NCBI GenBank assembly: GCA_020428795.1
Contig: JAGQME010000004.1
Location: 1 to 49,618, forward strand
Reading direction: 5' to 3'
DNA from: Candidatus Kaiserbacteria bacterium
GTDB taxonomy: Bacteria; Patescibacteriota; Minisyncoccia; Phycocordibacterales; UBA918
DNA: 49,618 nt
Shown here piece by piece: positions 6,810 to 46,811 of the stretch. Position numbers and translations under genes: made by a program. The notes beneath the pieces are model-generated. The model did no database searches. It was not told where the DNA came from and worked only from the letters and a program-made list of their open reading frames with translations. Within the stretch, counting starts at the first letter, position 1; every line of letters begins with the position of its first letter.

Positions 6810-6811
6810 AT

Positions 6812-8859: not shown

Positions 8860-8931
8860 TTTTATATTTTACACCCAAAGTAACGACAAACTCTAATTTG
8901 TCACCATTTTTGATCAATTAACCTTAAGTGT

Positions 8932-25371: not shown

Positions 25372-25376
25372 AAAAT

Positions 25377-31625: not shown

Positions 31626-31651
31626 AACTTTACTCTTACATTGTAACGCAT

Positions 31652-33475
31652 TTAAGCGCTATCTATAGTTTGGGAACTGGGAATTACTAAATCCTCAATT
31701 TCGACTGGCCTGGTGGTCGAAGCTTCAGTATCACTATCCGGCACAAAAACCGGTACTATCAAATCCTCAAATTCAGTGGTGGAAGTAGCTGTTAATTCTG
31801 TATTACTACTAGTTGGACTAGTAGTGGCACTCGGCACTGGATTTACAACCTTGGTGGTAGTTGAAACACTTATACCACTATCACTACTGGTGGCCTGATT
31901 ATTCTGATTATCAGGCGGTGATGTTTTAGGGGTAGTAACAACTATTTCAGACTCTTTACCAGTGGGTTTGGTTTGAATCAAAGCTCTTGTCTCACCAGTC
32001 TGGTCAGAATTAGGAATTTTTTCCGGCACCTTATGGGGTTGGGCCGACAATGGAACCACTACTCTTGAAGCCAAATCAAAACCCTTAGTAACAATATCAC
32101 CGTTTTCAAGCGCTGTTTCATAAACCAATACCATGCGAGGATTCTGGACCGAAGAGCCTCCACCGTCATCAATAATAGAAAGTTCTTCAGTGGCTAAATC
32201 ATAAAGAACAATCTGTTGCTTACCAGTTTTGTCGGTTGTATTCCAAATAACCAAATCCTCATAGACAAGCGGAGCCACATCATGTGATTGTGAATTACTG
32301 ATGATTCGTTCATTCTTACCATCGTGCAGAATAATCTCCCAATTGTTTTCTACCCACCGTTGCCAGGCTATGTAGTCATCATATCTGGACGGCTCCATAT
32401 TATTTACACTTCCATTGGTTAGTTGGACTTCTTTACCACTATCTATATCATAAGAAATTATTTGATAACGATCATTTATCAGACGATGCCAAACGATGGT
32501 GTTTGAAACCGGATCGAAGTAAGGAGCGGCGTCGTCTACTTCGTTATGAGTAATCTGGGTTTGCTCACCATTATAATATAAGAAAATCTCCAAATCGCCG
32601 TCTTTATCAGGAGCAGATAATAGACGGTTTTCTTCTGTGTCCTCAGTTTTTTCGGTGTCACTAATACCACAATAAAAAGAGCCATCCTCTACTCTGACAC
32701 ACTCTTCCCGGCTAAACTGGTAATAATTATCGGCATTATTTACAACGTCTACCCTTTCAATTATTTCATCTGAGGTAGTAGCTTGGGTTTCGTCCGAGAC
32801 TTGTTCATCGGTACTTGAACCTATATCAGTCTCTATTTCATTAACGATATCTTTCTCTACATCGCCACCGGAATCACTATCTACAGACGAAGAGTCTCCG
32901 CCATCGCCAGATTCGTCATTCTGAATAGTTTCAGCAACGTCTTCACTACCATCCTCTGTGACTGAAGAAATTTGATCTTGATTAACATTTTCATCACCAC
33001 CATCGATTGCAGGCTCAGCTTGATCAATTGACTGATTATCATGGCCACCAGTTTCCACTTCACTAATCTCAGTATCAGACACACTTTCTGGTTCATCAAG
33101 ATCAATTGCTGATGATAACAAATCCGACTCAGACTGATCGGTTGCATCATCAAAATCCTCAGCGAGATTATCTGATTCTGATTGACTTTCTGATTCGGTA
33201 TTTTCTATATCGGCCGGAGGCGGTGATTCCTCAGCTGGTACCTCAGATATCTCTCCTTCAGTTGTCTCCAGCCCCTCACTAGATGCAAAAACATACGAAA
33301 CAGAAGACAGCAGTAAAGCCAGACCTAAGATCAAGATAGCTAACACCGAAAAGACACTGCTATAGACAAACCGATACAGAATGACGTTGGCTAAGGCAGG
33401 TGTATTATTATGTTTTTTTGTTATTTTTGGTTGCACCACAAACAATAGTCCTAGAAAATTAGAACTTCCCATCAC
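31652..33475 (-). CDS. Membrane-anchored protein with acidic low-complexity region, TolB/PD40-like beta-propeller repeats and Ser/Thr/Pro-rich tail
   Basis: 607 aa. TM VFSVLAILILGLALLLSSV. D/E/S-rich stretch of about 170 aa. Repeated blades such as EIFLYYNGEQTQIT, YQIISYDIDSGKEVQLT, WEIILHDGKNERIIS and QIVLYDLATEELSII. Confidence 0.7.
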   Translation of the reverse strand: MMGSSNFLGLLFVVQPKITKKHNNTPALANVILYRFVYSSVFSVLAILILGLALLLSSVSYVFASSEGLETTEGEISEVPAEESPPPADIENTESESQSESDNLAEDFDDATDQSESDLLSSAIDLDEPESVSDTEISEVETGGHDNQSIDQAEPAIDGGDENVNQDQISSVTEDGSEDVAETIQNDESGDGGDSSSVDSDSGGDVEKDIVNEIETDIGSSTDEQVSDETQATTSDEIIERVDVVNNADNYYQFSREECVRVEDGSFYCGISDTEKTEDTEENRLLSAPDKDGDLEIFLYYNGEQTQITHNEVDDAAPYFDPVSNTIVWHRLINDRYQIISYDIDSGKEVQLTNGSVNNMEPSRYDDYIAWQRWVENNWEIILHDGKNERIISNSQSHDVAPLVYEDLVIWNTTDKTGKQQIVLYDLATEELSIIDDGGGSSVQNPRMVLVYETALENGDIVTKGFDLASRVVVPLSAQPHKVPEKIPNSDQTGETRALIQTKPTGKESEIVVTTPKTSPPDNQNNQATSSDSGISVSTTTKVVNPVPSATTSPTSSNTELTATSTTEFEDLIVPVFVPDSDTEASTTRPVEIEDLVIPSSQTIDSA

Positions 33476-33525
33476 ATATATATTTTACGTTAGTTTAGCC
33501 TTTCAATACCGACCACTTATCAACA

Positions 33526-34287
33526 CTATTGAAAGAAATATCTGGCCAAAATTATACCGAAATCTCGAAAAGTCATCTTAGAATCACCACTAAAATCATA
33601 AACTTTACTTTTTTGGTGCCAAGCTGACATAAAAGCACTAATATCTTTTAGGGTTACTCTTCCATCATTATCTATATCACCAACAATACCAAGACCACCC
33701 TCACCAGAAATAGACACATTTGGCACGAAAGTACCATCTTCCCTAGCAATTGCTAGCTGGGTACTATCTTCACCAACATCAGTCACCGTAACCTCGGCAC
33801 CAGTTCCGTCTCCAGCGTAAAGTACCGCCTCACTCACTTCAATGTAGGCTAGGCCCGAGGTCTTGGCTTCTGCTTTAATAGTAGCAATTCGGTGTTTACC
33901 AATAAAACCTTTGCGGTAGGTACCACCAGAAAGGAAAACGGTACCACTATTAAAGTATGGTTCTTTGGTCCACAGGGTTATCACTGAAGTTCCAGTATCA
34001 ACACCAAGAATCTTAACCTGTGTGGTCGGTAGCTTCACCTTGATGTCAACAGCGTTAACTGGCACCTTAGCTGTTACATAAACATCGATTGAAAAATTCT
34101 CACCAGCTAACACTGTTTCTCTATCGGGTTCGATCGATATATAAGTAACATCCTCAGACAAAAGAGCGGCCGCTCCCAATACTGAAACTAAGGTCAAAAA
34201 CAACGGAAAGGCATGACGAACTGTTGGCGTTGATTTTGTGTAAAACCAAGGAAACAGCCACCTTTTTAGCCTTTCAAAAAAAATCAT
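33526..34287 (-). CDS. Cohesin-like domain plus C-terminal dockerin protein
   Basis: 253 aa. TM/signal. Cohesin-like GENFSIDVYVTAKVPVNAVDIKVKLPTTQVKILGVDTGTSVITLW. Dockerin pair GDIDNDGRVTLKDISAFMSAW and YDFSGDSKMTFRDFGIILARY. Confidence 0.75.
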   Translation of the reverse strand: MIFFERLKRWLFPWFYTKSTPTVRHAFPLFLTLVSVLGAAALLSEDVTYISIEPDRETVLAGENFSIDVYVTAKVPVNAVDIKVKLPTTQVKILGVDTGTSVITLWTKEPYFNSGTVFLSGGTYRKGFIGKHRIATIKAEAKTSGLAYIEVSEAVLYAGDGTGAEVTVTDVGEDSTQLAIAREDGTFVPNVSISGEGGLGIVGDIDNDGRVTLKDISAFMSAWHQKSKVYDFSGDSKMTFRDFGIILARYFFQ

Positions 34288-34949
34288 AGCGAATTAATTT
34301 CCGAATGCACCGTGAGAATCTCATCTCTGGTCTCTAAAATTGATTTACTAAGTTCCCTAGCTTGGGCAATCTCAGAAATAATAACTTCGGAATCTGTCGA
34401 TTCACCACTAGAAAGATAGTTGATGATGTTTTTTTGAGTTTCAACCAACTCCAGATCCAAATCCGCTCTTCTTGCCTCTAGAGCAACCACTTTCTTCCAA
34501 AGGTTGGTTTTAACCTCGTTAGGACCAACAAATTTGCCACTCTGATCAATTATTTCCATCAACTCAATATAGTCTGACAAAAGATTCTGACTAACAGAAA
34601 CCAGATAAGCTCGTTGCAACGGATAGAAGTAAGCACATCTTTCAAAGGCTAATTGCAGGTCTGATAGCTCTGTCTTATTTAGATTACTCAAATTACCTAA
34701 ATTGGTATCAAAAGAAGCCCTCTCTTCGATCGGACAATCCCTAACCAAACCCCGTACCCCACCTGGCGAGGTATTGTTTTTTAGATGAGTTGAAAGTTCT
34801 ATCAGTTTGGTTTCTTTCTCACCAGCCAATTGTTTAACCTCTGACAAATATCGATATTCTAGTGTGGCATAGGCTGCCACCACAAGCAAAACGGCAATAG
34901 CTATTATTGATAAGGTTTTTATTAATTTTTTATTATCAGACAATTTCAT
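34284..34949 (-). CDS. Hypothetical membrane-anchored helical protein
   Basis: 221 aa. N-terminal TM LSIIAIAVLLVVAAYA. ATGA overlap (34284..34287) with the downstream gene. Confidence 0.6.
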   Translation of the reverse strand: MKLSDNKKLIKTLSIIAIAVLLVVAAYATLEYRYLSEVKQLAGEKETKLIELSTHLKNNTSPGGVRGLVRDCPIEERASFDTNLGNLSNLNKTELSDLQLAFERCAYFYPLQRAYLVSVSQNLLSDYIELMEIIDQSGKFVGPNEVKTNLWKKVVALEARRADLDLELVETQKNIINYLSSGESTDSEVIISEIAQARELSKSILETRDEILTVHSEINSL

Positions 34950-34959
34950 ACAAATAATT

Positions 34960-36723
34960 CTAATCTACTATATCGGTAACATCATCAATTTCTTTCATAA
35001 CCCTGACCTTTGATTCATTAAGAGCGTGACTCAACTCATCTACCAACTCCTCCTCGGACTTAGTTAGTTTTGATGATTTTCGTGACTGTTTTAATATCTG
35101 AGCCTGAGCCATCAACAATGATTCTAACTCTGAAAATTCTCGAACCAAAATCGCTTTAGCTTCTCTTGATTCTCTATAAACACCCTTTCGTAAATTTCTG
35201 GCTTTAAGGAGTATAAACCAAATACCAAAGATTAGTAACGCCACCAAAGCAATTAGTGGTACAACCACAGACAACAGACTGACTGCAAAGGAACCAATCC
35301 TAACATAACCGGGTTCCGCTACCACCACTCTAATAGTGTCTGAGCGGTCACTCCTAGCTCCATTTACATCTATCGCCACAGCTGAAATTTCATAGACTCC
35401 GTAAGTCAACCGTCCATCTGGTATCACAACAAAGACTCCTTCTTCGTTACTAACCACTTCGTAGGTCTTTACCGCATCGGCACTTGATACCCCTAATCCA
35501 ATCTGAGTGAAGTCTACCTGTACCTTAGCCTGAGGCCTTGTCATACCTTTTATAACCGGTATCACGTTGGACCCGATTTTATCAGGATAATCAGTGAAAA
35601 CAGGTTTATCAAAAGACAAAATGTTAAGAGAACGAGTACCAACAGTGCTATTTCCAGCCTCATCATAGACCTCCACCATTACTGAATGGTGTCCTGGTTC
35701 TAATTCTGGTAACTGAATGAAACCACTTTCCTCTTCATCTATATACTCAAAGACTTCACCACCATCAATAGCAATCAAGAACCTAATAGCCTTCGAAGTA
35801 TCATCCTTAACCGCGTAGGCTAATTTTTGAGCTGGCTGAGTCAGATCGGCCGCTTCAGGGAGGGACAAATTAAAATCATAAGGTTCACCCGTATCTACCT
35901 TAAGACTATAGTGGGTTATCTTTCCCCAGCCATCACTATTTTTGAACTGTATGTGAAAGTACGAAACCCCTTCATCAAGATCAGAAAGATTGATATTTCG
36001 GATTGGTGTATCATAAACTTTTGAAGGTACTGAACTTGGGCTAGTATCAAGAAGTGTTCTGACCGCCGTTACTCCATTTGGAATCTCCCAACTTAAACTA
36101 GCTTCTTTAATACCATACCAAGCCTCTTGATCACCATGCGTAGCAGAAGTGATTTTAGGGGCTGCTGGAGCATTGGTTGGTGAGACATATTCAACGATAA
36201 CCTCCGCTTCCGGCGTAGTGGCTTTTGATGAAATGGTGTAACTACCGCTATTCATCGAATTCAAAACATTGGTTCCTTTTCCGTCAGCAGCCAAGACTGC
36301 TCCGTTTGAAAAACTCAATTTTGAAGCACCACTACCGTTGGCCCTGAAGGTTATGGTTAGTACCGTACCGGCACTTCCGGTATAACCAGCCGGATTACCT
36401 CCACTAAACGATATCGTACCAGCGGAATTAGAGAAAGCCGGTTCGGCCGTCCATAAGTTAAACAGAGAACCCTTAGCCACTGATACCACCGACATCAAAC
36501 TAGGATTAAAGGAAAGCGTACCCTCGGCTGCGTTTATTGGTTTACCTTCAGTATTGATTCTGACACTAACAGAGAAAGTCTGACCGGAGGTGTAAACACC
36601 GGTGTTTGGACTTAATGATAATGTAGCCGCTTCAGCAAACTGAAATAGACTAAGATAAAAAATTACCGCTAACAATGTTAATAAAATCCTAGGATAAATT
36701 GCATTGATTTGAAAACTAAACAT
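34960..36723 (-). CDS. Cohesin-like domain surface protein with Ig-like repeats, TM anchor and coiled-coil cytoplasmic tail
   Basis: Start placed at ATG 36723, 1 nt after the upstream stop; the track start is 36762. ATLSLSPNTGVYTSGQTFSVSVRINTEGKPINAAEGTLSFNPSLMSVVSVAKGSLFNLWTAEPAFSNSAGTISFSGG. TM LLSVVVPLIALVALLIFGIWFIL. Confidence 0.75.
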   Translation of the reverse strand: MFSFQINAIYPRILLTLLAVIFYLSLFQFAEAATLSLSPNTGVYTSGQTFSVSVRINTEGKPINAAEGTLSFNPSLMSVVSVAKGSLFNLWTAEPAFSNSAGTISFSGGNPAGYTGSAGTVLTITFRANGSGASKLSFSNGAVLAADGKGTNVLNSMNSGSYTISSKATTPEAEVIVEYVSPTNAPAAPKITSATHGDQEAWYGIKEASLSWEIPNGVTAVRTLLDTSPSSVPSKVYDTPIRNINLSDLDEGVSYFHIQFKNSDGWGKITHYSLKVDTGEPYDFNLSLPEAADLTQPAQKLAYAVKDDTSKAIRFLIAIDGGEVFEYIDEEESGFIQLPELEPGHHSVMVEVYDEAGNSTVGTRSLNILSFDKPVFTDYPDKIGSNVIPVIKGMTRPQAKVQVDFTQIGLGVSSADAVKTYEVVSNEEGVFVVIPDGRLTYGVYEISAVAIDVNGARSDRSDTIRVVVAEPGYVRIGSFAVSLLSVVVPLIALVALLIFGIWFILLKARNLRKGVYRESREAKAILVREFSELESLLMAQAQILKQSRKSSKLTKSEEELVDELSHALNESKVRVMKEIDDVTDIVD

Positions 36724-36724
36724 A

Positions 36725-37777
36725 TTATTCTTCTTCACTGTAATTATCTTCATCGTCAGCAAACTCTGTGTTTTCTTGTTTTCGTCTACGTCCTAAAATC
36801 ACAACCGTTGTAATCACAATCACAACAATAAGTAGTCCTACCCCAAACACCACCGCCACTATCATCAATTCTTGCGGCAGAGTTCTCTGCTCTTCTCCTG
36901 GCACCAGTACCGCTACGTATTCGTTACCGGCCTTATCAATGGCCCTAACTCTAATGGTTATATTAAGTGACTGATCTTTTAGAACATAAGGACTGGTAGC
37001 TTTTACCCAAGGCGCTGTCGCCGCTCCCCAAATAAAACGATTTCTAAATTCTGACGGCTCTTCCATTACTTCGTAATAAGCGATACCGGACTGTTTATCA
37101 GTGGTATTAAAAGTTATAAAATATTTATTACTAAAAGCGTTCGGGGTTTGTTCTAGATTGATAGTAAAGTCCTCCGGTGGCTGAGTATCATCGTTTATAG
37201 CATCGAGCCAGACATTATCCACTCGACTACCCGCCTCCTTGCTCAAAGAAATCTTGGAACCAAATAATTGCCGACTGGCCTCGGTACCAAAACCATCGTT
37301 CAACAACACCCTAGTCTCATCACCATAAACAATATCTACCTCATTTCCACTAGCCGTAGAGCCGATCTGTAGGCCCGGTGACATAAATAAAATATCAAGC
37401 AAATTGTTGGTTAGACGAGGATCACCAGCGATCCGACCACAATAACCGTTAGGAACACCTCCCGCAAAAGTAATTGTTCGATTAGCCTTATCAATAATCG
37501 GTTCTTCCAACCAAATCGATAAAATAGACTTACCTCTTGAGGTATCAACCGGCTCAATATTGTCACTGTATCTTATCGTAGCATCGACGGCGTTTATACA
37601 TTCTTCTGGATCAGTATTTATTCGCAAAGAAACCACTGTCGTATCCCCTCTTTTTAGTTCAGATTGATTGGGGTCCATATACAAAACAGCCGCTTCTGTT
37701 TTTATAACCAAGCCAAAAAACATCAACAAAAATAAGCCGAATATATTAACCCTCTTCATGTACCTTAAGTATAACAA
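36725..37777 (-). CDS. Cohesin-like domain surface protein with C-terminal TM anchor
   Basis: 350 aa. Signal peptide. LYMDPNQSELKRGDTTVVSLRINTDPEECINAVDATIRYSDNIEPVDTSRGKSILSIWLEEP...ITFAGGVPNGY. TM MIVAVVFGVGLLIVVIVITTVVIL. Confidence 0.75.
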   Translation of the reverse strand: MLYLRYMKRVNIFGLFLLMFFGLVIKTEAAVLYMDPNQSELKRGDTTVVSLRINTDPEECINAVDATIRYSDNIEPVDTSRGKSILSIWLEEPIIDKANRTITFAGGVPNGYCGRIAGDPRLTNNLLDILFMSPGLQIGSTASGNEVDIVYGDETRVLLNDGFGTEASRQLFGSKISLSKEAGSRVDNVWLDAINDDTQPPEDFTINLEQTPNAFSNKYFITFNTTDKQSGIAYYEVMEEPSEFRNRFIWGAATAPWVKATSPYVLKDQSLNITIRVRAIDKAGNEYVAVLVPGEEQRTLPQELMIVAVVFGVGLLIVVIVITTVVILGRRRKQENTEFADDEDNYSEEE

Positions 37778-37864
37778 TAACTACTATTTAGTATCAGTTT
37801 GGTTGTGTATACCTTACCTTAAACCACCTATTTATATAGCACTGAGTTGTAAAAACATAATAAA

Positions 37865-37887
37865 CAAAAAACCCACCTCGTGGTGGG
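37865..37887 (-). terminator. Intrinsic terminator of the 376-aa surface protein gene
   Basis: The minus sense reads CCCACC-ACGA-GGTGGG followed by TTTTTTGTTTATT, 67 nt past the stop at 37954. Confidence 0.75.
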
Positions 37888-37953
37888 AGATAGGGTTCTT
37901 TGTAGCTCTGCTATTGCAATTGAGAGTGTTTTATAAGCTAGTTATAAAACGAA

Positions 37954-39084
37954 TTAGAATGATGGTGTCGCTACGTAAGTTAGGACGGCAGAGTAGTCAT
38001 CACCAGCTTCTTGCAAAGAGGTAATTTCAATCTGATATCCAACTCGAGCTGCACCGATCCCAGCAGTTGTACTGTCTGCTGGCCCATTGTGACCCATAAC
38101 TAGACGTGGGGTGGTGCTAGCAGCGATAAATCTAGCTGAGAGGAAATCTGTTCCTCGGCCAGGAATCGCCAAGTCGTCCGATGTAACTCCCCAGTGTCCA
38201 TAGGTATCTGGAAGACCAAGGGTGCCAGATGGAGCTGACCATAGCGCCGGCACATCTGTGTCTGAGCCATCAGCGAAGCCGTTAATATCGGCTCCAGTTG
38301 ATGATTGAAGGGCACCATCGAGCTGTACTGTTACAGAGTAGCCATTACTTGCGTTAGTGCCTACCTGCAAATCTTGTGCAGTGGTGGTGGCCGAACCATC
38401 GGATAATTCACCAAATGGAATAGTCGTGGCGGTTGTTGCTCCAGTGGTAGTTGCCCCATTGACAACCTGACCACCAGCGACACCAGCTACTGAAAAAGTA
38501 AAAATGGTGTCAACAGCAGCCGTAACCGTAACCTCGTCTACAATAGCAACTATTGTAGATCCGGAATCATTCGGTCCGCTGGTAATATCAATATCATACG
38601 TACCCACGGCTGGGTTAGTAATTTTATTGGTACCACCAACTACGATGGTTACTTCTTCATCTGCCTCTATCTGCCCTCCGTCATCTTGACACAAAGTCAG
38701 TGTCAAAACATTTCCGGCAAATACAGCACTCATATCTTCACCTCCAGTACAGTCGGCAGCAGGCACACCTGCTGTACCAAACGAACCGTAGGTAGAGCCA
38801 CTTACATTTACATCAGTCTCATCGACCGAACCCATTGTAAAGGCTGGATCAAAGGTGACGGTAATTGTAGAGGTACTCCCATAAGCGCCATCAGCTATGA
38901 AGTAGATCGTGTGGTCCGCTTCTGTTGACGGAGCTGAGGTTGATAGAGTATCGCTAACTTCTGTGATGTTAGCAGCTCCAGCAAGCTGGAGGTACGGTAG
39001 TCCTAGTGACCAAAAAATGATCGCCAATCCTACAACCATTGCAATAGTTTTGAGCGTTCCAACGGTGTTTTCCGTTTTGAACAT
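37954..39084 (-). CDS. Secreted Thr/Gly/Ala-rich protein with WxL-like C-terminal domain; candidate major surface subunit
   Basis: 376 aa. Signal/TM LKTIAMVVGLAIIFWSLGL. C-terminal domain ...TIFTFSV...IPFGEL...VGTNASNGYSVTVQL...GHWGV...VGYQIEITSLQEAGDDYSAVLTYVATPSF. Has its own terminator and an 850-nt upstream non-coding region. Confidence 0.8.
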   Translation of the reverse strand: MFKTENTVGTLKTIAMVVGLAIIFWSLGLPYLQLAGAANITEVSDTLSTSAPSTEADHTIYFIADGAYGSTSTITVTFDPAFTMGSVDETDVNVSGSTYGSFGTAGVPAADCTGGEDMSAVFAGNVLTLTLCQDDGGQIEADEEVTIVVGGTNKITNPAVGTYDIDITSGPNDSGSTIVAIVDEVTVTAAVDTIFTFSVAGVAGGQVVNGATTTGATTATTIPFGELSDGSATTTAQDLQVGTNASNGYSVTVQLDGALQSSTGADINGFADGSDTDVPALWSAPSGTLGLPDTYGHWGVTSDDLAIPGRGTDFLSARFIAASTTPRLVMGHNGPADSTTAGIGAARVGYQIEITSLQEAGDDYSAVLTYVATPSF

Positions 39085-39469
39085 AGCTCTACGTTGTATT
39101 TTAGCCTATCAACTTGTTGTCTTGAGTTGTATGGCTCAATTAACAAGATTTGGTGTGTTGTGGTGAAACAGACACCGAAACTTAACAAAGGTCTCCACAC
39201 CTTCTATAAGCTATTTGATAAGCATATTTGTTACATAACACCCGGCTGAAGTGCCCGTCGCATACGCGACTACAACGCAGTATGATTAAAAAATACCTCT
39301 GCAACAAATACTATTACATTGTAACTTGTGTTTATTTTTTATAATAAAAACTTATACACATTTTTAGATTTTTAGACATAAACTACACAAACCAAGCTAC
39401 ATAAACGTAAGAAAAACACTGATTCTACCTTGTACAAAAAATATAAAACGAGGTCTGGATCAAAACACC

Positions 39470-39507
39470 AAAAAATAAAACTTCGGTTAACCGAAGTTTT
39501 ATTTTTT
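39470..39507. terminator. Perfect palindromic hairpin with bidirectional terminator geometry
   Basis: aaaaaataaaacttcgg-ttaa-ccgaagttttatttttt. 17-bp arms that include an A-run and a T-run. Confidence 0.7.
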
Positions 39508-39541
39508 GGTGTTTGGTAGTGTATAAATTTAGCTACGTGGG

Positions 39542-39567
39542 TATTTACGTATTTAGTTACGTAAATA
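39542..39567. promoter_or_regulatory. Operator-like inverted repeat
   Basis: tatttacgta-tttagt-tacgtaaata: 10-bp perfect arms with a 6-bp spacer. Each arm contains the palindrome tacgta. Confidence 0.25.
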
Positions 39568-39658
39568 TTTTATATTTCTCTATACTCTTTTCTATTTATA
39601 TAAATAATTTGAACACCAGATACATAGAGGGGTTGTTGGAATTAAAATATAAATCCCT

Positions 39659-39704
39659 AAAAACAAATAGTATGATATTACATAATATCATACTATTTGT
39701 TTTT
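39659..39704. terminator. 22-bp perfect inverted repeat with bidirectional terminator geometry
   Basis: aaaaacaaatagtatgatatta-ca-taatatcatactatttgttttt. Confidence 0.7.
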
Positions 39705-39717
39705 AGGTCCCATATCG

Positions 39718-39801
39718 AAGGTTTGACTGCGAGTTCCTAATTTTCTCAAGGGGAGAAAAAATTAGGAACAAAATTCGCAATATGCCCTGCGGGCATTTGC
39801 T
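39718..39801. repeat. Structured intergenic repeat A, copy 1 (84 bp identical core)
   Basis: Identical to 39851..39934. Contains a long hairpin gttcctaattttctc / gagaaaaaattaggaac, extended by tgcga/tcgca, and a GC hairpin atgccc-tgc-gggcat. Degenerate similarity extends about 9 bp further 5' (from 39709). Confidence 0.9.
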
Positions 39802-39850
39802 GCGGAGTATAAAGTAAAAACAGGCTCTGTCTGGTTTATCACCTATACCA

Positions 39851-39934
39851 AAGGTTTGACTGCGAGTTCCTAATTTTCTCAAGGGGAGAAAAAATTAGGA
39901 ACAAAATTCGCAATATGCCCTGCGGGCATTTGCT
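39851..39934. repeat. Structured intergenic repeat A, copy 2
   Basis: 84/84 identical to copy 1, with a 133-bp period. It ends 4 nt from the stop codon (39939..39941) of the dockerin gene. Confidence 0.9.
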
Positions 39935-39938
39935 CATT

Positions 39939-41057
39939 TTACCCGGTCCAGTTGAATAGTAGGATGGAGAAATCTTCAATCCCAACTCGACCGTTACCAT
40001 TGATATCAGCTGGAGGGTCAGAGTCGCCACCATTCGTTTGCCACCAGAAAATCAAAATAGAAAAGTCTGTTAGATTAACCTTACCATCTCGACTTAAATC
40101 AGACGGGGTACTAGCCTGCCCTTCTACTCCCACAAATAACTGCAAGGTGGTACTGAAATTCGTCTCGGTTCTTAGTGGTGGTGTACCAGATAAATATCTA
40201 GCCTTGACCGGGTAGGCCTTAGCCGATAGTGATCCGGTGTTATAGGTCAAAGACCATTTTCCGTTTTCATCAGCAGTAGCAGTCTGCACAATCCGACTGC
40301 CATCAATATGTACCTCAACCGTTACCCCTGGTAAGGCTTGACCGGAAAAAGTAACCACTGCCCCCGGATCAACCTGAGTCGAACTGAGTCTAAGAGTTGG
40401 TGGTAATAAGATACTGGCAATATTAGTTATAGCACCCTGAGTAACATCAAAAGTGTTATTTAGGGTTATAGAACGTGTGTTTTGATCGTCAGTCGACCAA
40501 AAACCTAAAGACACCGTCCCAGGTGAAGCATCGGTAGTAAAATTAAAACTTCCCTGACTATTGGCTCGTACACTACCCACCTGTTTGCCATCGAGCAAAA
40601 TATTAATTGTCCGATTAGGATAACCTCGTCCTGTTACGCTTATTTGCGTATCACCCAAATCTGTATTTGATCCTCCTCTTGACCCGCCACCACCGGAAGA
40701 ACCACCGCCTCCTGAACCAGCCGGTTCAATGGTACAAGTAGAACTGCAAAAGTCACCATCATCATTGTTCCCGTCATCGCATTCCTCAGCATACTGAGTT
40801 TGTAAAATACTGTCGCCACAATAAGGACCGAACAAGCACTGACTATTACACTGACGACCGGCAATCGTTGTACTGTACTGACCCGTCTCTCCAGGCACAT
40901 CACATTCTTCACCAGGGTTCACAATCAAGTCACCACAGATACTAAGATCAATGGTAGTAGTGGCCAGATAAGTTTGAGCCACTGATGTATTTGGTATAAA
41001 CCAAAAACTGATACTGACTAAAAGAAAATAATAAGAGAGTGGTGACTTCATAGACAA
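39939..41057 (-). CDS. Secreted protein: two Cys-rich (CGDxxxxxxEECDDGN-type) repeats, Gly-rich linker, Ig-like domains, C-terminal dockerin
   Basis: 372 aa, TTG start with ATG two codons later. CGDLIVNPGEECDVPG and CGDSILQTQYAEECDDGNNDDGDFCSSTC. GSGGGGSSGGGGSRGGS linker. Dockerin pair SDLSRDGKVNLTDFSILIFWW and ADINGNGRVGIEDFSILLFNW. Confidence 0.8.
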   Translation of the reverse strand: MSMKSPLSYYFLLVSISFWFIPNTSVAQTYLATTTIDLSICGDLIVNPGEECDVPGETGQYSTTIAGRQCNSQCLFGPYCGDSILQTQYAEECDDGNNDDGDFCSSTCTIEPAGSGGGGSSGGGGSRGGSNTDLGDTQISVTGRGYPNRTINILLDGKQVGSVRANSQGSFNFTTDASPGTVSLGFWSTDDQNTRSITLNNTFDVTQGAITNIASILLPPTLRLSSTQVDPGAVVTFSGQALPGVTVEVHIDGSRIVQTATADENGKWSLTYNTGSLSAKAYPVKARYLSGTPPLRTETNFSTTLQLFVGVEGQASTPSDLSRDGKVNLTDFSILIFWWQTNGGDSDPPADINGNGRVGIEDFSILLFNWTG

Positions 41058-41067
41058 CCTTCGCAGC

Positions 41068-42003
41068 CTACTTAATACGATTGCGACGGCGTGAAATGTA
41101 CATAAGGATGATCACAACAAATATAGCCAAAATCGGTAGTATTACGGATATCTTATGAGGCAAAGATAACCCAGCAAAACCGAATCCAGCCGCCTGTAAA
41201 GTACCATACGGTAAAATATTCAAATTAACTTCTCCTTCCAACTTAACATCATCATGATTCATGATTTCAAATCTAGCCATGTAGGCACCGGCCGGTAATC
41301 TGGTTGGAATTTCGGCCACTACTTGTTCGGTAGCGAATGGTTTAACTTTAGTAATCTTACCTAGGTTTTTAGTTTCTTCTAACAAAACCTTGCCAGAGGC
41401 ATCGTAAATCCTAAAGGCCACTTTAGACGGTGCCACATCAACGTTACCAGTGTTTTCCAACATCATAGAGAAATTTATTTTTCCAGGGAAGAACAACCAA
41501 CCGATTTTTTTACCTTCATTTAAATCACTGATACCAATCTTACGAATCTTAAAGTCTTCAATTACTTTATCAATTACATTAAACTCCAAATCAATCAAAG
41601 CTCCCAGCGAAATATTTACAGCACCAGCCCCCACAGCGTTATCAACCGCTCCAGTCTTTATACGCAAGGCACCATTGTAGTTTTTAAATTCAGCATCACT
41701 CGGTACCTTTACCCTAACAGTCATTGGAACCTTCTGCTCACCCCGAGGTAATATAAATTCATCACCCTCCAAAACCTCAACCCAATCAGAAAAACCAGGC
41801 GCATCTACCAATATAGAAGCTTTTAATTCGGTATTGGGATCACCACGCACAATAAGAATCTGTTGCTCGTAGGTTGAATTTCTGGTTAAGCTGGTATTTC
41901 TAACATAAGGTGGTGTGACACCAAATCCAGCAAAAACAGACTCCGTTGATATCACTAGAGAAAACAATACGATTAAGCCAACTGAAAGAAATCGAAACAT
42001 CAT
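41068..42003 (-). CDS. DUF916/DUF3324-like surface protein with C-terminal TM anchor (third paralogue)
   Basis: 311 aa. Signal peptide. GVTPPYVRNTSLTRNSTYEQQILIVRGDPNTELKASILVD...WVEVLEGDEFILPRGEQKVPMTVRVKVPSDAEFKNYNGALRI. Second lobe MMLENTGNVDVAPSKVAFRIYD...LPAGAYMARFEI. TM ISVILPILAIFVVIILMYI. Confidence 0.7.
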   Translation of the reverse strand: MMFRFLSVGLIVLFSLVISTESVFAGFGVTPPYVRNTSLTRNSTYEQQILIVRGDPNTELKASILVDAPGFSDWVEVLEGDEFILPRGEQKVPMTVRVKVPSDAEFKNYNGALRIKTGAVDNAVGAGAVNISLGALIDLEFNVIDKVIEDFKIRKIGISDLNEGKKIGWLFFPGKINFSMMLENTGNVDVAPSKVAFRIYDASGKVLLEETKNLGKITKVKPFATEQVVAEIPTRLPAGAYMARFEIMNHDDVKLEGEVNLNILPYGTLQAAGFGFAGLSLPHKISVILPILAIFVVIILMYISRRRNRIK

Positions 42004-42039
42004 TACTCGTTATAGGTTGTATTTAATTATCGCAATTAA

Positions 42040-42080
42040 AGGTAATAAAGCAAGAACCACTGCTGGATAACAGTGGTTCT
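42040..42080 (-). terminator. Likely intrinsic terminator of the 627-aa gene
   Basis: 10-bp perfect stem agaaccactg / cagtggttct (42053..42080) with an 8-nt loop. The minus-sense tail is TGCTTTATTACCTTT. Confidence 0.6.
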
Positions 42081-42116
42081 AGCTGGTTATTTTGGACTTA
42101 TCTAATCTAACCTATC

Positions 42117-44000
42117 CTACCATTGAGAAGCATCGCTGGCTGCTCCAATAAAGGTGTTTTCTCCAGTATAAGCTCCTGAGTAAGTAATCGTTCCCGGAAC
42201 GGCAATACCCCAATAAGTTTCCTTCTCAGCCTGCGTGTTAGTAGCGGTTGACTTAGAAATATTTAAGTCAAGATACTTGTAAGTTGATGATGAAAGGAAG
42301 TTACCGGCCCCCAGAGCTGTTGCGTAAGTAACTGATGAGGTGGCAAACACCTGCTCTGTTTCAGGAATAGTCGATGTCGCTGAATTAGGACAACTGAAGG
42401 CTCCTGAGTAAGTGCTACACATGGCTTGACCGGACAATTCTTGGTCCAGACCAATGTTACCGGTCGCTCTAAAGGTAGTAGTGGCTACTAGAGGGTCGGT
42501 CTGTTGACCTGGCTCAAGCTGTTGGTAAGCGATCACAAAAGTATCAAGGGCGTAGGCTAAGAAACTAACCAATTCTTGTCCGGTATTACTTTGTACGTAA
42601 GAACTGGTAGCCAAATCATCATCAACTCCTCTTACGGCTACCGACCAGTCAGTAGCAAAATGAATCGAAGTGGTGGCAGACCCATCAGTTGGATCGGCAA
42701 CATACCAAAGCGGGAAGGTACAGTCGTAGACCATAGTGGTATCTATACCGTCAACACCAAAAGTACAACTGGTTGAAGAAGCGGTACAAGACAGATTCCA
42801 AGTAGAAGTAGCCAAACCGCTTGGATAACAATTGTTTGGATTGTAATCAGCTGCGTCTGGTGTACAGGTAGTGGTACCAACGGTAGTTCTATATACAGCC
42901 AACTCATAACCAGAAATCTCTGGACCAGAAGCAGCGTTTTCACAACTATTGTCGTCAGAAACAGAGAATTGAATCTGGAAACCAGTGGTCTCGCCAGCAT
43001 CTTGAGTTAAGATGATGTCTTGACCGTCGTTAAGGGTAATTTGGTTTGATAGAACCACCGGTGGCGCATTTGAAACAGTAATATCTGATTGACCACCTTG
43101 AGCACCACCGGAAGCAGCGTGTCCGTGTTCATCAATAATATACAGGAAGACCGGATAATCATCGTCTTGAGTTGGGATAGTAATAGTATAGGTAGCGGCT
43201 GGATTTGAAGCCGACAAAGTTGAACTAGCTAGCTCAGTTGCGGTACAGGTTGAACTAGCCACATTGAAAGAAGCAGTTGAACAGACAAACAACTGAACAT
43301 CATCCTGAGCTGGCACCACGTCTGGATCACTTGAAGTAGCAGTGATAGTTACCACGCTACCCGGCAAGACCGGTGAGTCGTTACTGTAGCCAGTAAAGAC
43401 TGGACGACTGTTCATATTGAAAGGAGAAGCGGTTAGACCAGTTCCTTGTTTAGAGACAGCGTTACATCTTGGTAGGACAGGATCATCGTCACAGATCCAA
43501 GCGTACCAAGTGTTCTGCTCGTTAAAGTCATCACCGACTTCAGTGGTGGTAGTGGCGGCTCTAGCTTGTACACCACTGGTAGCAGCTGGTGAAACCGCCC
43601 ACTGAGTTGAAGTAGCGGTACAGCTAGGAGGTGCGGTTCCTAAAGAACCATAGCCAGCCGCTGCGGCCGGTACCGCTGAGTTAGGGCTATCACAGACCAG
43701 TAAGAAATAAGGTTGGTTACTAGGATCAGTGGCCGTAGCTACCCAAGCTACTTCATCACCAGAATTGGTCGGATTGGCATCTGAAGATTCAGACTCTTCT
43801 TCAGCGTCAACCGTCCAGCCTGGTGGAGTGTTTAAAACCGTAATACTGGTGGTAGCAATATTACTTTGGGCTTCTACTTTTTGGAGTTCTTTGGCTCCAA
43901 AATTAAGAATGAATATAGCAGCAAAAATGACCACCCCAACTAAACCAGTGATGATGGTAATCTTACCAGCCGAATTTTTTATTAATGACAGCTCTTTCAT
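42117..44000 (-). CDS. Cys-rich secreted surface protein with Ig-like repeats and type-2 WxL-like C-terminal domain
   Basis: 627 aa. Signal/TM ITIITGLVGVVIFAAIFIL. C-terminal ...YQQLEPGQQTD...GNIGLDQELSG...IPETEQVFATSS...ETYWGIAVPGTITYSGAYTGENTFIGAASDASQW. Its last ~300 aa are collinear with ORF 48594..49618. Confidence 0.8.
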   Translation of the reverse strand: MKELSLIKNSAGKITIITGLVGVVIFAAIFILNFGAKELQKVEAQSNIATTSITVLNTPPGWTVDAEEESESSDANPTNSGDEVAWVATATDPSNQPYFLLVCDSPNSAVPAAAAGYGSLGTAPPSCTATSTQWAVSPAATSGVQARAATTTTEVGDDFNEQNTWYAWICDDDPVLPRCNAVSKQGTGLTASPFNMNSRPVFTGYSNDSPVLPGSVVTITATSSDPDVVPAQDDVQLFVCSTASFNVASSTCTATELASSTLSASNPAATYTITIPTQDDDYPVFLYIIDEHGHAASGGAQGGQSDITVSNAPPVVLSNQITLNDGQDIILTQDAGETTGFQIQFSVSDDNSCENAASGPEISGYELAVYRTTVGTTTCTPDAADYNPNNCYPSGLATSTWNLSCTASSTSCTFGVDGIDTTMVYDCTFPLWYVADPTDGSATTSIHFATDWSVAVRGVDDDLATSSYVQSNTGQELVSFLAYALDTFVIAYQQLEPGQQTDPLVATTTFRATGNIGLDQELSGQAMCSTYSGAFSCPNSATSTIPETEQVFATSSVTYATALGAGNFLSSSTYKYLDLNISKSTATNTQAEKETYWGIAVPGTITYSGAYTGENTFIGAASDASQW

Positions 44001-44132
44001 GTTGTACTACATAATATTTACTAAACTTTATACTATTGTAACGAACTATCACCCCCACTGGGGATGAGTTATACACAAGCAGACCAAGACTGCGAATAAG
44101 TGACAGTATCTATAATCAAGGAAAAAATACTA

Positions 44133-46721: not shown

Positions 46722-46811
46722 AGAAAAATTCGGCGAAAAAATCTCGTTTCTATAATTAGAACATACCAACCCTCTTTACCTTAGGGGTAGTATCCACACA
46801 TATCATCGAGA

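What the first reader, a model, noticed from the sequence alone, without database searches (positions are those of the whole stretch)
33526..41057. Self-contained cohesin-dockerin network with membrane-anchored cohesins and no glycoside hydrolases
Three consecutive-operon proteins carry an N-terminal cohesin-like domain (36725..37777, 34960..36723, 33526..34287). Two of them end in a TM helix, so they look like cell-bound scaffolds.

Two proteins carry canonical paired dockerin Ca-loops:
- GDIDNDGRVTLKDISAF / YDFSGDSKMTFRDFGII in 33526..34287.
- SDLSRDGKVNLTDFSIL / ADINGNGRVGIEDFSIL in 39939..41057.

One protein has both modules, so it could chain or self-assemble. The other dockerin protein displays two Cys-rich CGD...EECDDGN repeats of the kind known from myxobacterial and eukaryote-like adhesion proteins.

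No carbohydrate-active enzyme is present. The logic therefore looks like surface display or adhesion rather than a cellulosome.
Basis: partly seen in the sequence, partly recalled or inferred. Interest (0 to 1): 0.7.

Follow-up and report, generated by a model that had tools for sequence, protein, structure and literature searches.

The report
Cohesin-dockerin parts of a CPR surface-fibre cluster
The cohesin and dockerin modules are real, but they are fixed parts of a 13-gene cell-surface cluster conserved across Paceibacteria-type ultrasmall bacteria, next to pilin-like and pilus-chaperone-like genes, so they probably clip a surface fibre or its base protein to the cell membrane and have nothing to do with cellulose breakdown.

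Summary
Three adjacent minus-strand genes (253, 600 and 350 aa) carry homologous cohesin domains. The evidence is a Pfam hit at E 6e-11 for the 600-aa protein, a predicted cohesin fold for the 253-aa protein, and a profile match (E 6e-27) linking the 350-aa family to the 600-aa family. Two proteins end in paired Ca-loop dockerin modules. The 372-aa one passes Pfam's cut-off. The 253-aa one does not, but its Ca ligands are invariant in 118 homologues. No carbohydrate-active enzyme was found.

The network is not self-contained. It sits in a strictly colinear 13-gene cluster (about 22722..45341), present in 32-36 of 36 fully sampled Patescibacteria loci. The cluster also encodes:
- a 376-aa pilin-like protein and a 2082-aa giant that share one C-terminal domain, weakly similar to the CPR Pam pilin;
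- three WxLIP/PapD-like membrane-anchored paralogues;
- a MacB-type ABC permease.

The dockerins are the most conserved segment of their proteins (83% and 62% mean identity).

My best reading (about 0.45) is that membrane cohesins hold the secreted dockerin protein as the anchor or assembly platform of a Pam/WxL-like fibre. No pairing was tested. I rate it a new variant of known kinds.

The parts
33526..34287 (-). 253-aa protein: N-terminal membrane anchor (residues 25-47), cohesin fold (residues 48-181, nt 33745..34146), disordered linker, dockerin-like module (residues 203-253, nt 33529..33681).
   Evidence: It has 435 or more homologues, all about 250 aa long. The dockerin Ca ligands are invariant.
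34284..34949 (-). 221-aa protein: N-terminal transmembrane helix plus a coiled-coil-like region. It is the least conserved member of the cluster.
   Evidence: Present in 27 of 36 loci at about 28% identity. No family hit.
34960..36762 (-). 600-aa protein: signal peptide, cohesin (residues ~45-180, nt 36223..36630), middle domain, Big_13 Ig-like domain, further beta domain, transmembrane helix 485-524, ~75-aa cytoplasmic tail. An alternative start lies at 36723.
   Evidence: Pfam Cohesin E 6e-11. Big_13 is hit in 41 of 41 orthologues.
36725..37777 (-). 350-aa protein: signal peptide, divergent cohesin (residues ~28-180, nt 37238..37696) with a conserved Cys pair (C60, C113), Ig-like domain, transmembrane helix 299-333, short acidic tail.
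37954..39084 (-). 376-aa pilin-like protein: signal peptide, N-terminal domain, conserved linker strand 'VTVTAAVDTIFTF' (residues ~183-200), C-terminal domain ending in LTYVATPSF.
   Evidence: 32 of 44 orthologues and 34 of 52 divergent relatives hit NCBIfam NF058581 CPR_Pam_pilin_C (best E 1e-7 and 1.7e-8), none near the 55-bit cut-off judging by their E-values. The linker is more conserved than either domain.
39939..41057 (-). 372-aa secreted protein: signal peptide, conserved mature N-terminus 'ATTTIDLSI', two Cys-rich DUF4215 repeats (nt ~40722..40940), Gly-rich linker, two Ig-like domains, C-terminal dockerin (residues 316-372, nt 39942..40112).
   Evidence: Mean pairwise identity of the dockerin is 82.6% over 44 genomes.
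41068..42003 (-). 311-aa WxLIP/PapD-like protein: signal peptide, two beta-sandwich domains, C-terminal transmembrane helix.
   Evidence: The AF2 model has pLDDT 83.7. Foldseek hits E. faecium WxLIP (9i25_C, 9i1y) and the FimC, DraB and Caf1M chaperones.
42117..44000 (-). 627-aa Cys-rich surface protein. Its mature N-terminus carries the same 'AQ..ATTT[LI]' motif as the 372-aa protein.
44133..45341 (-). MacB-type ABC permease (MacB_PCD + FtsX) at the edge of the conserved cluster.
   Evidence: Median identity 81% across loci.
45399..46769 (-). 456-aa ABC ATPase adjacent to the permease. Whether it belongs to the cluster could not be checked, because it lies beyond the fetched flanks.
31652..33475 (-). 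607-aa protein: N-terminal anchor, acidic low-complexity region, TolB-like beta-propeller repeats, Ser/Thr-rich tail.
25377..31625 (-). 2082-aa giant surface protein. Its last ~180 aa are homologous to the C-terminal domain of the 376-aa pilin-like protein (ending in ITYIAVPTF).
24346..25371 (-). 341-aa WxLIP/PapD-like paralogue of the 311-aa protein, with a C-terminal transmembrane helix.
   Evidence: hhalign E 1.3e-14. WxLIP_PGBD scores 25.7 bits, just under the 27.3 cut-off.
22722..24449 (-). 575-aa protein: a third WxLIP-like module (residues 47-314) fused to two transmembrane helices and a LytR_C domain. It marks the other edge of the conserved cluster.

Best explanation
The cohesin and dockerin modules are conserved core parts of a Paceibacteria-wide cell-surface apparatus. 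That apparatus is encoded by a colinear 13-gene cluster (window about 22722..45341).

The cluster resembles the donor-strand fibre systems recently described as Pam pili (CPR) and WxL/WxLIP clusters (Firmicutes). It has:
- a small pilin-like protein (376 aa);
- a giant protein (2082 aa) with the same C-terminal domain;
- three membrane-anchored two-beta-sandwich, chaperone-like proteins (311, 341 and 575 aa).

Proposed mechanism.
1. The three cohesin proteins (253, 350 and 600 aa) are tethered in the cytoplasmic membrane with their cohesins outside.
2. The secreted 372-aa protein has no membrane anchor of its own. Its almost invariant C-terminal dockerin holds it on one of these cohesins in a Ca-dependent way.
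3. The dockerin of the 253-aa protein binds a second cohesin, cross-linking the platform.
4. The platform anchors or organises the fibre at the cell surface. The 372-aa protein may play the part of the Pam anchor PamR, with a dockerin in place of PamR's transmembrane helix.

Shown: the domain identities, the membrane topology, and the conservation and synteny of the cluster.
Inferred: every cohesin-dockerin pairing, the fibre itself, and the anchoring role.
For: Module identity.
- Cohesin.
- Dockerin.

Topology. All three cohesins are membrane-tethered and extracytoplasmic. The 372-aa protein has a signal peptide and no transmembrane helix.

Synteny. The gene order is the same in three independent contigs. 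Of 36 full-flank loci from the species-representative genome scan, 11 of the 13 genes are found in 32-36; the 221-aa gene is in 27 and the permease in 26, the latter limited by how far the fetched flanks reach. All 13 loci inspected for gene order are colinear.

Selection. The dockerins are the most conserved segment of their proteins: 82.6% and 62.1% mean pairwise identity. The cohesin is the most conserved part of the 600-aa protein at 65%. This fits protein-protein interfaces.

Fibre context.
- The 376-aa and 2082-aa proteins share a C-terminal domain.
- The 376-aa family is reproducibly, though weakly, similar to the Pam pilin C-terminal model.
- The inter-domain linker of the 376-aa protein is more conserved than its domains. 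The donated linker of Pam pilins is reported to behave the same way (bioRxiv 10.64898/2026.03.03.709456).
- The 311-aa model is a tandem beta-sandwich plus a transmembrane helix, and it matches WxLIP and the FimC, Caf1M and DraB chaperones.
- The 311, 341 and 575-aa proteins are paralogues.
- The Pam model also uses membrane-anchored PapD-like chaperones, plus an anchor with an N-terminal strand.
- WxL clusters pair a small and a large protein sharing a C-terminal domain with a DUF916-DUF3324-TM protein (PMC10599100).

From established knowledge: cohesin-dockerin bonds already anchor the adhesin CttA to the Ruminococcus flavefaciens cell surface and are very mechanostable.
Against: - No cohesin-dockerin pair was tested. 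No multimer prediction was available, and covariation inside the 253-aa family showed nothing.
- The dockerin of the 253-aa protein is below Pfam's cut-off.
- Similarity of the 376-aa family to the Pam pilin model is weak (best E 1e-7 and 1.7e-8; the window protein scores 18 bits), far below the 55-bit cut-off. It covers only the start of the model in the window protein. The family does not hit Pfam WxL.
- Foldseek TM-scores of the 311-aa model to WxLIP and FimC are low (0.2-0.4), and generic tandem-Ig proteins score as well or better.
- The Pam paper mentions no cohesin, dockerin or MacB component, and places Pam pilins mainly in Saccharimonadia and Microgenomatia.
- No fibre has been observed for these organisms.
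- Membership of the ABC transporter in the system rests on adjacency alone.
Confidence: 0.45

Rival explanations
1. This is an autonomous cohesin-dockerin display or adhesion network. Membrane scaffolds present the Cys-rich 372-aa adhesin. The 253-aa protein chains or self-assembles. There is no functional link to the neighbouring pilin-like and chaperone-like genes.
For: The module identities and membrane anchoring are confirmed. The 372-aa protein carries adhesin-type DUF4215 and Ig-like domains. Terminator-like hairpins separate the 372-aa gene and the 376-aa gene from their downstream neighbours, so the cluster may be more than one transcription unit.
Against: The cohesin and dockerin genes were found together with the pilin-like and chaperone-like genes, and in the same order, in nearly all of the 36 fully sampled loci (35-36 of 36; the 575-aa gene in 32). 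Their conservation (45-83% identity) is that of machinery, not of exposed variable adhesins. No covariation supports self-chaining of the 253-aa protein.
Confidence: 0.25
2. The modules do not pair with each other. The cohesin folds act as structural or ligand-binding beta-sandwiches at the membrane surface. The dockerin-like EF-hand pairs act as Ca-stabilised modules that bind something else, such as cell-wall or host glycan, or another protein of the cluster.
For: The dockerin of the 253-aa protein fails Pfam's cut-off and scores similarly against EF-hand models. The 350-aa cohesin is highly divergent, with 3 of 41 orthologues hitting Pfam. The cohesin-like fold also occurs in non-dockerin contexts, for example the CLIPPER domain 9ifr among the Foldseek hits. 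A dockerin-domain envelope protein is essential in a Saccharibacterium, and the paper that reports it names no cohesin partner (PMC10633639).
Against: Three cohesins and two dockerins co-inherited in one cluster across many species is hard to explain without mutual recognition. The 372-aa dockerin is the most conserved segment in the whole cluster and has the internally duplicated helix pattern of type I dockerins.
Confidence: 0.2
3. A cellulosome-like enzyme complex whose dockerin-bearing enzymes are encoded elsewhere in the genome.
For: Only 49.6 kb of the genome is visible. Membrane or cell-bound anchoring scaffoldins exist in true cellulosomes (general knowledge).
Against: No CAZyme or CBM domain was found in the window or in the syntenic loci. 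The only dockerins in the window are on non-enzymatic proteins. Each cohesin protein has a single cohesin. From general knowledge, the hosts are ultrasmall CPR bacteria with minimal metabolism.
Confidence: 0.05

Closest known systems
Non-cellulosomal cohesin-dockerin pairs, and cell-anchoring cohesin-dockerin pairs such as R. flavefaciens ScaE-CttA. Solved non-cellulosomal cohesins include those of C. perfringens (2vo8, 2jh2) and A. fulgidus (2xdh).
   Same: The cohesin jelly-roll fold matches; the best Foldseek matches include exactly these non-cellulosomal cohesins. The dockerin has duplicated Ca loops. No CAZymes are present. A cell-bound cohesin would hold a non-enzymatic surface protein.
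   Different: The cohesins are anchored by transmembrane helices, not by sortase or SLH modules. Each protein has a single cohesin. One protein has a membrane anchor, a cohesin and a dockerin in only 253 aa. The system is embedded in a pilus-like gene cluster of a CPR bacterium. Binding is untested.
Pam pilus system of CPR bacteria (Troman et al. 2026, bioRxiv 10.64898/2026.03.03.709456)
   Same: It is a CPR surface cluster. It has a pilin-like protein with an N-terminal domain, a conserved linker and a C-terminal domain that weakly matches NF058581. It has paralogous membrane-anchored PapD-like two-domain proteins. No usher or trans-envelope machine is encoded.
   Different: The similarity is far below the family cut-off. 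The taxon is different (Paceibacteria-type). There is a giant 2082-aa protein with the pilin C-terminal domain. There are three cohesin proteins, two dockerins and a MacB-type ABC permease, none of which the Pam description mentions. No RbmA-like anchor with a transmembrane helix was recognised.
WxL / WxLIP (Csc) surface clusters of Firmicutes (Hassan et al. 2023, PMC10599100; PDB 9i25, 9i1y)
   Same: A small and a large protein share a C-terminal domain. They come with an Ig-Ig-TM partner protein. The 341-aa family touches Pfam WxLIP_PGBD. The 311-aa model matches solved WxLIP structures.
   Different: There is no Pfam WxL match, and the C-terminal motif is TY[VI]A.P.F rather than WxL. There are three WxLIP-like paralogues instead of one. 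The cohesin, dockerin and ABC components are extra.
Adaptor scaffoldins of cellulosomes (cohesin(s) plus a dockerin in one protein)
   Same: The 253-aa protein combines a cohesin and a dockerin, the defining trait of an adaptor.
   Different: It is itself membrane-anchored, has one cohesin, and has no enzyme clients. It would link components laterally at the membrane rather than extend a scaffold outward.

Membership tests
Cohesin domain (PF00963) | Profile match at or above Pfam's gathering score | tested here: met
   The 600-aa protein scores 43.1 bits against a cut-off of 24.1, and 32 of 41 orthologues hit. This is not met directly by the 253-aa and 350-aa proteins. They are linked by BLASTP at E 6e-12 and 2e-15 and by hhalign at E 7e-10 and 6e-27.
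Cohesin domain (PF00963) | Nine-stranded beta jelly-roll fold | tested here: met
   In the AF2 model of the 253-aa protein, residues 48-181 have pLDDT about 90. The top ~43 Foldseek PDB hits are all cohesins, with target-normalised TM up to 0.83. The 350-aa and 600-aa proteins were not modelled.
Cohesin domain (PF00963) | Binds a dockerin | not testable with these tools
   No multimer prediction or experiment was available. Covariation was uninformative.
Dockerin type I (PF00404) | Two tandem segments, each a 12-residue Ca loop (D-x-[DN]-x-[DN]-G-x-x-x-x-x-D) followed by a helix | tested here: met
   Both proteins have them. The Ca ligands are invariant or nearly so in 118 and 45 homologues respectively. 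The model shows two helices after the loops, at residues 213-225 and 240-252.
Dockerin type I (PF00404) | Profile match at or above Pfam's gathering score | tested here: met
   The 372-aa protein scores 24.6 bits against 22.9, and 44 of 45 orthologues hit at E up to 0.01, best 2e-8. This is NOT met by the 253-aa protein (17.0 bits).
Dockerin type I (PF00404) | Ca-dependent binding to a cohesin | not testable with these tools
   Needs ITC or pull-down with and without EDTA, or multimer modelling.
Cellulosome | Dockerin-bearing carbohydrate-active enzymes and a scaffoldin with several cohesins and/or a CBM | tested here: not met
   No GH, CE, PL or CBM family was hit in the window ORFs scanned or in the syntenic loci. 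Each cohesin protein has one cohesin.
Pam pilus system (CPR) | Pilin matching the Pam pilin C-terminal domain model NF058581 at its cut-off (55 bits) | tested here: not met
   The window protein scores 18 bits. 32 of 44 and 34 of 52 relatives hit at E up to 0.01, best 1e-7 and 1.7e-8, far from the cut-off. This indicates a distant relation, not membership.
Pam pilus system (CPR) | Membrane-anchored PapD/FimC-like two-domain chaperones in the operon | tested here: inconclusive
   The 311-aa model is two beta-sandwiches plus a transmembrane helix. Foldseek finds FimC, DraB, Caf1M and WxLIP at E 1e-7 to 5e-9, but with TM 0.2-0.4 and among generic tandem-Ig hits.
Pam pilus system (CPR) | Donor-strand exchange between the linker strand and a truncated Ig-like C-terminal domain | not testable with these tools
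   There is only indirect support. The linker is more conserved than the domains, and a 'VTVTASVD' motif resembles the CfaB donor strand at a non-significant E of 0.54.
WxL / WxLIP cluster | WxL domain (Pfam PF13731, dual Trp-x-Leu motif) in a small and a large protein | tested here: not met
   No member of the 376-aa family hit the Pfam WxL model at E up to 0.1. The small-and-large arrangement with a shared C-terminal domain is present.
WxL / WxLIP cluster | WxLIP protein (DUF916 + DUF3324 + transmembrane helix) | tested here: inconclusive
   WxLIP_PGBD scores 25.7 bits against a cut-off of 27.3 in the 341-aa protein, and 8 of 40 orthologues hit at E up to 0.01. The 311-aa model matches the solved WxLIP structures 9i25_C and 9i1y.

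The most novel reading that the evidence does not exclude
Paceibacteria-type CPR bacteria build a donor-strand (Pam/WxL-like) surface fibre with an unusual base. The base subunit (the 372-aa protein) would be fastened to the cytoplasmic membrane by a Ca-dependent dockerin-cohesin clamp on a three-cohesin membrane platform, rather than by its own membrane helix or by sortase. Assembly would be coupled to a MacB-type ABC mechanotransducer. That would be a previously undescribed way of anchoring and assembling a pilus, and the first assigned cellular role for the widespread non-cellulosomal cohesin-dockerin pairs.
Probability: 0.25. Interest if true: 0.8.

Novelty: new variant of a known kind. 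Interest (0 to 1): 0.6.

Why it matters
- Cohesin and dockerin modules outside cellulosomes have been catalogued for years, almost always without an assigned function.
- Here they sit in a fixed position inside a strongly conserved cell-surface gene cluster of a huge, uncultivated bacterial group that is thought to live attached to other cells.
- That gives a concrete, testable hypothesis: three cohesins, two dockerins, one candidate fibre.
- It extends the newly described CPR Pam-pilus theme to Paceibacteria, with different anchoring parts.
- It may explain why a dockerin-domain envelope protein was found to be essential in a cultured Saccharibacterium (PMC10633639).
- A transmembrane-anchored, 250-aa cohesin-dockerin protein is also a compact natural part for surface-display engineering.

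Tried and rejected
1. Sequence searches of the PDB gave nothing usable. The queries were the 600-aa protein, the 376-aa family profile and the 311-aa family profile. The only hit was a non-significant CfaE/CfaB donor-strand match at E 0.54.
2. Pfam WxL was tested on the 376-aa family, with no hit. I therefore do not file the system as a WxL cluster.
3. MI-APC covariation was run between the cohesin and dockerin columns of the 253-aa family (192 sequences, Neff 168). The best inter-domain pair ranked 153rd with z 2.9. The result is uninformative, so self-chaining is neither supported nor excluded.
I repeated it with database homologues.
5. Rfam found no RNA family in the window. The sigma-70-like promoter scan was not above the shuffled background.
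6. Full-text searches for cohesin or dockerin in Parcubacteria, CPR or Patescibacteria found no description of this cluster. Most subscription-journal papers are not covered by these searches.
7. The cellulosome reading was rejected for lack of any CAZyme or CBM.
8. The CLIPPER (isopeptide) domain, one of the lower Foldseek hits (rank 44), was considered and dropped, because about 43 cohesins rank above it.
9. Many loci are labelled 'uncultured Candidatus Saccharibacteria' on TPA MAGs. I could not verify those labels, so I do not claim the cluster occurs in Saccharimonadia.

Full report
**1. Observation**

The region holds a run of minus-strand genes. I checked each claim in the finding.

Cohesins:
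- The 600-aa product of 34960..36762 matches Pfam Cohesin at E 6e-11 (43.1 bits, cut-off 24.1) and also Big_13.
- The 253-aa and 350-aa products have no direct Pfam cohesin hit. Their N-terminal domains are homologous to that of the 600-aa protein by BLASTP (E 6e-12 and 2e-15).
- Profile-profile comparison confirms this: the 350-aa family against the 600-aa family gives 99.7% probability, E 6e-27. The 350-aa family against the 253-aa family gives 96.5%, E 7e-10.
- An AlphaFold2 model of the 253-aa protein was built from 118 homologues (mean pLDDT 80.6, about 90 over residues 48-181). Its top ~43 Foldseek matches in the PDB are all cohesins. The best is the C. perfringens non-cellulosomal cohesin 2vo8 (E 2e-9, TM 0.83). 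The A. fulgidus cohesin 2xdh is also among them.

Dockerins:
- They are the only paired loops among all ORFs of the window.
- The 372-aa protein passes Pfam Dockerin_1 (24.6 bits against 22.9), as do 44 of 45 orthologues at E up to 0.01.
- The 253-aa protein scores only 17 bits. However, D204, D215, D231, D235 and D242 are invariant and D206 and D208 nearly so in 118 homologues, and the model puts a helix after each loop.

Other claims:
- The Cys-rich repeats are DUF4215 / TIGR02232, both above their cut-offs.
- No carbohydrate-active enzyme family was hit among the window ORFs scanned.
- A hydropathy scan shows that all three cohesin proteins are membrane-tethered. The 253-aa protein has an N-terminal anchor. 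The 350-aa and 600-aa proteins have a signal peptide plus a C-terminal helix, and the 600-aa protein adds a ~75-aa cytoplasmic tail.
- The 372-aa dockerin protein has only a signal peptide.

**2. What surrounds it**

The 253-aa protein has more than 400 homologues in public metagenomes. All are about 250 aa long and 45-66% identical, and the one that carries a taxon name is from Candidatus Nomurabacteria, a CPR lineage. The 350-aa and 311-aa families are even better conserved.

Contigs carrying three different homologues show the same gene order as the window:

MacB/FtsX permease, ~630 aa, ~315 aa, ~370 aa (DUF4215, Big_6, Dockerin), ~376 aa, ~355 aa, ~595 aa (Cohesin, Big_13), [~220 aa], ~250 aa, ~560-600 aa, ~1800-2150 aa, ~340 aa, ~550 aa (LytR_C).

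A scan of one genome per species gave 93 matches, and 80 loci were kept. Almost all are labelled as Patescibacteria lineages: Paceibacteria, Nomurabacteria, Kaiserbacteria, Parcubacteria, Elulimicrobium. Two carry other labels (Acidimicrobiales, Azotimanducaceae) and several are unclassified.

tblastn of the window proteins against these loci gave the following:
- The genes from the 575-aa LytR_C protein to the 627-aa protein are present in 32-36 of 36 full-flank loci. The exception is the 221-aa gene, found in 27 of 36.
- The permease is found in 26 of 36, limited by the reach of the flanks.
- All 13 loci inspected for order are colinear.
- Genes further out in the window are not conserved with the cluster.

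So the finding is the centre of a conserved unit at about window 22722..45341.

**3. What the neighbours are**

Pilin-like proteins:
- The 376-aa protein and the last ~180 aa of the 2082-aa protein are homologous (E 2e-7). Both end in TY[VI]A.P.F.
- NCBIfam's model for the C-terminal domain of the CPR 'Pam pilus' pilin (NF058581) is hit weakly by the window protein (18 bits). It is also hit by 32 of 44 orthologues (best E 1e-7) and by 34 of 52 more divergent relatives (best 1.7e-8). All of these hits are far weaker than the 55-bit cut-off.
- The Pam system was described in 2026 from cryo-EM of Ca. Mycosynbacter filaments. Its pilins have an N-terminal beta-sandwich, a donated linker strand and a truncated Ig-like C-terminal domain. 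Its PapD-like chaperones carry a C-terminal membrane helix. A membrane-anchored terminator, PamR, has an N-terminal strand (bioRxiv 10.64898/2026.03.03.709456).
- In the 376-aa family the inter-domain linker (residues 183-200) is more conserved (64%) than either domain (48% and 58%). The Pam paper reports the same for the donated linker.

Chaperone-like proteins:
- The 311-aa and 341-aa proteins are full-length paralogues (hhalign E 1.3e-14). Residues 47-314 of the 575-aa protein are a third copy (E 3e-15).
- An AlphaFold2 model of the 311-aa protein (pLDDT 83.7) shows two beta-sandwiches plus a C-terminal helix.
- Its Foldseek matches include solved E. faecium WxLIP (9i25_C 'bound to long WxL', and 9i1y) and the chaperone-usher chaperones FimC, DraB and Caf1M. 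TM-scores are low, and generic tandem-Ig proteins score alongside them.
- The 341-aa family touches Pfam WxLIP_PGBD just under its cut-off.
- WxL clusters of Firmicutes consist of a small and a large protein sharing a C-terminal domain, plus a DUF916-DUF3324-TM protein predicted to insert a hairpin into that domain (PMC10599100). The anatomy is parallel, but the 376-aa family does not hit Pfam WxL.

**4. How it most likely works**

Shown:
- real cohesin and dockerin modules;
- extracytoplasmic, membrane-tethered cohesins;
- a secreted dockerin protein without its own anchor;
- co-inheritance with pilin-like and chaperone-like genes;
- dockerins that are the slowest-evolving segments of their proteins (82.6% and 62.1% mean identity over 44 genomes), and a cohesin that is the slowest-evolving part of the 600-aa protein (65%).

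Inferred:
- The dockerin of the 372-aa protein clamps it to one of the membrane cohesins.
- The dockerin of the 253-aa protein cross-links a second cohesin.
- The resulting platform anchors or organises a Pam/WxL-like fibre made of the 376-aa protein and tipped by the 2082-aa protein.
- The 311, 341 and 575-aa proteins act as membrane-bound chaperones.

The 372-aa protein has a conserved mature N-terminal strand (ATTT[LI]x[LV]), which it shares with the 627-aa protein. It also has two Ig-like domains and a C-terminal dockerin. This layout recalls PamR, with a dockerin replacing the membrane helix. That is a hypothesis, not a result.

From general knowledge, cohesin-dockerin pairs already anchor an adhesin (CttA on ScaE) in Ruminococcus flavefaciens and are very resistant to force. 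That would suit a fibre anchor.

I give the whole model about 0.45.

**5. Rivals**

The invariant synteny and machinery-like conservation argue against it. Terminator-like hairpins after the 372-aa and 376-aa genes leave room for separate regulation.
- Modules that do not pair with each other (0.2). This is possible because pairing is untested and two modules are divergent. It is hard to reconcile with the co-inheritance of three cohesins and two dockerins.
- A cellulosome with enzymes encoded elsewhere (0.05). There is no CAZyme anywhere in the window or in the syntenic loci.

**6. Comparison and novelty**

- Domain membership in the cohesin and dockerin families is met for at least one protein each. 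For the others it rests on homology or on motif and fold.
- Membership in the cellulosome is tested and not met.
- Membership in the Pam system and in WxL clusters is not met at family thresholds. The cluster works like them in outline but is not a recognised member.
- The Pam description contains no cohesin, dockerin or MacB component and does not mention Paceibacteria.
- Full-text searches found no description of this cluster.
- A dockerin-domain envelope protein was reported to be essential in the Saccharibacterium Southlakia, and that paper names no cohesin partner (PMC10633639).

I therefore rate it a new variant of known kinds: a non-cellulosomal cohesin-dockerin system combined with a CPR donor-strand fibre cluster.

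**7. Limits**

- No interaction was tested.
- Only two proteins were modelled.
- The link to Pam pilins is weak at the sequence level.
- Taxon labels of many MAGs are unreliable.
- Membership of the ABC transporter rests on adjacency.
- The covariation attempt was uninformative.

Noticed in passing
window 39466..39934 (intergenic, between the 372-aa gene and the 376-aa gene): There is a 100-nt direct repeat (39702-39801 and 39835-39934; 94% identical, 133 nt apart) immediately after the stop codon of the dockerin gene. Each copy contains hairpins. A long palindrome lies at ~39655-39700, and a 20-bp perfect hairpin with a T-run at 39466-39511 on the minus strand. At 854 nt, the spacer is much longer than in the three syntenic loci whose called genes are listed (264-482 nt).
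   Followed up: partly
window 37872..37894 (- strand): A terminator-like hairpin with a T-run lies just after the pilin-like gene. This could be an attenuator giving a high ratio of pilin to downstream gene products.
   Followed up: no
window 40940..40975 and 43850..43885 (mature N-termini of the 372-aa and 627-aa proteins): Both secreted proteins, and their orthologues, start after the signal peptide with the same conserved motif AQ..ATTT[LI]x[LV]. This may be a shared donor or recognition strand.
   Followed up: partly
window 38485..38540 (residues ~183-200 of the 376-aa protein): The linker motif VTVTA[AS]VDT.FTF resembles the N-terminal donor strand of the CFA/I major pilin CfaB. It was picked up through the donor-strand-complemented CfaE structure 2hb0 at a non-significant E of 0.54.
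   Followed up: partly
window 22722..24449: The 575-aa protein is a third WxLIP-like paralogue (residues 47-314, E 3e-15 to the 341-aa protein), fused to two transmembrane helices and a LytR_C domain. The called ORF also overlaps the 341-aa gene by ~100 nt, so its true start is probably further downstream.
   Followed up: partly
window 48594..49448 and 47052..48569: The 284-aa ORF is a paralogue of the C-terminal half of the 627-aa cluster protein (E 5e-16). It sits outside the conserved cluster, next to a protein with fn3 and purple-acid-phosphatase N-terminal domains.
   Followed up: no
window 36725..37777 (residues C60 and C113): The divergent cohesin of the 350-aa family has an invariant Cys pair (ECINAVD ... 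GYCGR) that the other two cohesin families lack. It is probably a disulfide.
   Followed up: no
window 5964..13046: A separate module of signalling genes (double-receiver response regulator, two histidine kinases, a FIST protein) lies next to a 920-aa Big_13 surface protein. It is flanked by uvrA and uvrB.
   Followed up: no
window 45399..46769: The ABC ATPase next to the MacB-type permease is unusually long (456 aa). It has a ~200-aa C-terminal extension with no Pfam match.
   Followed up: no
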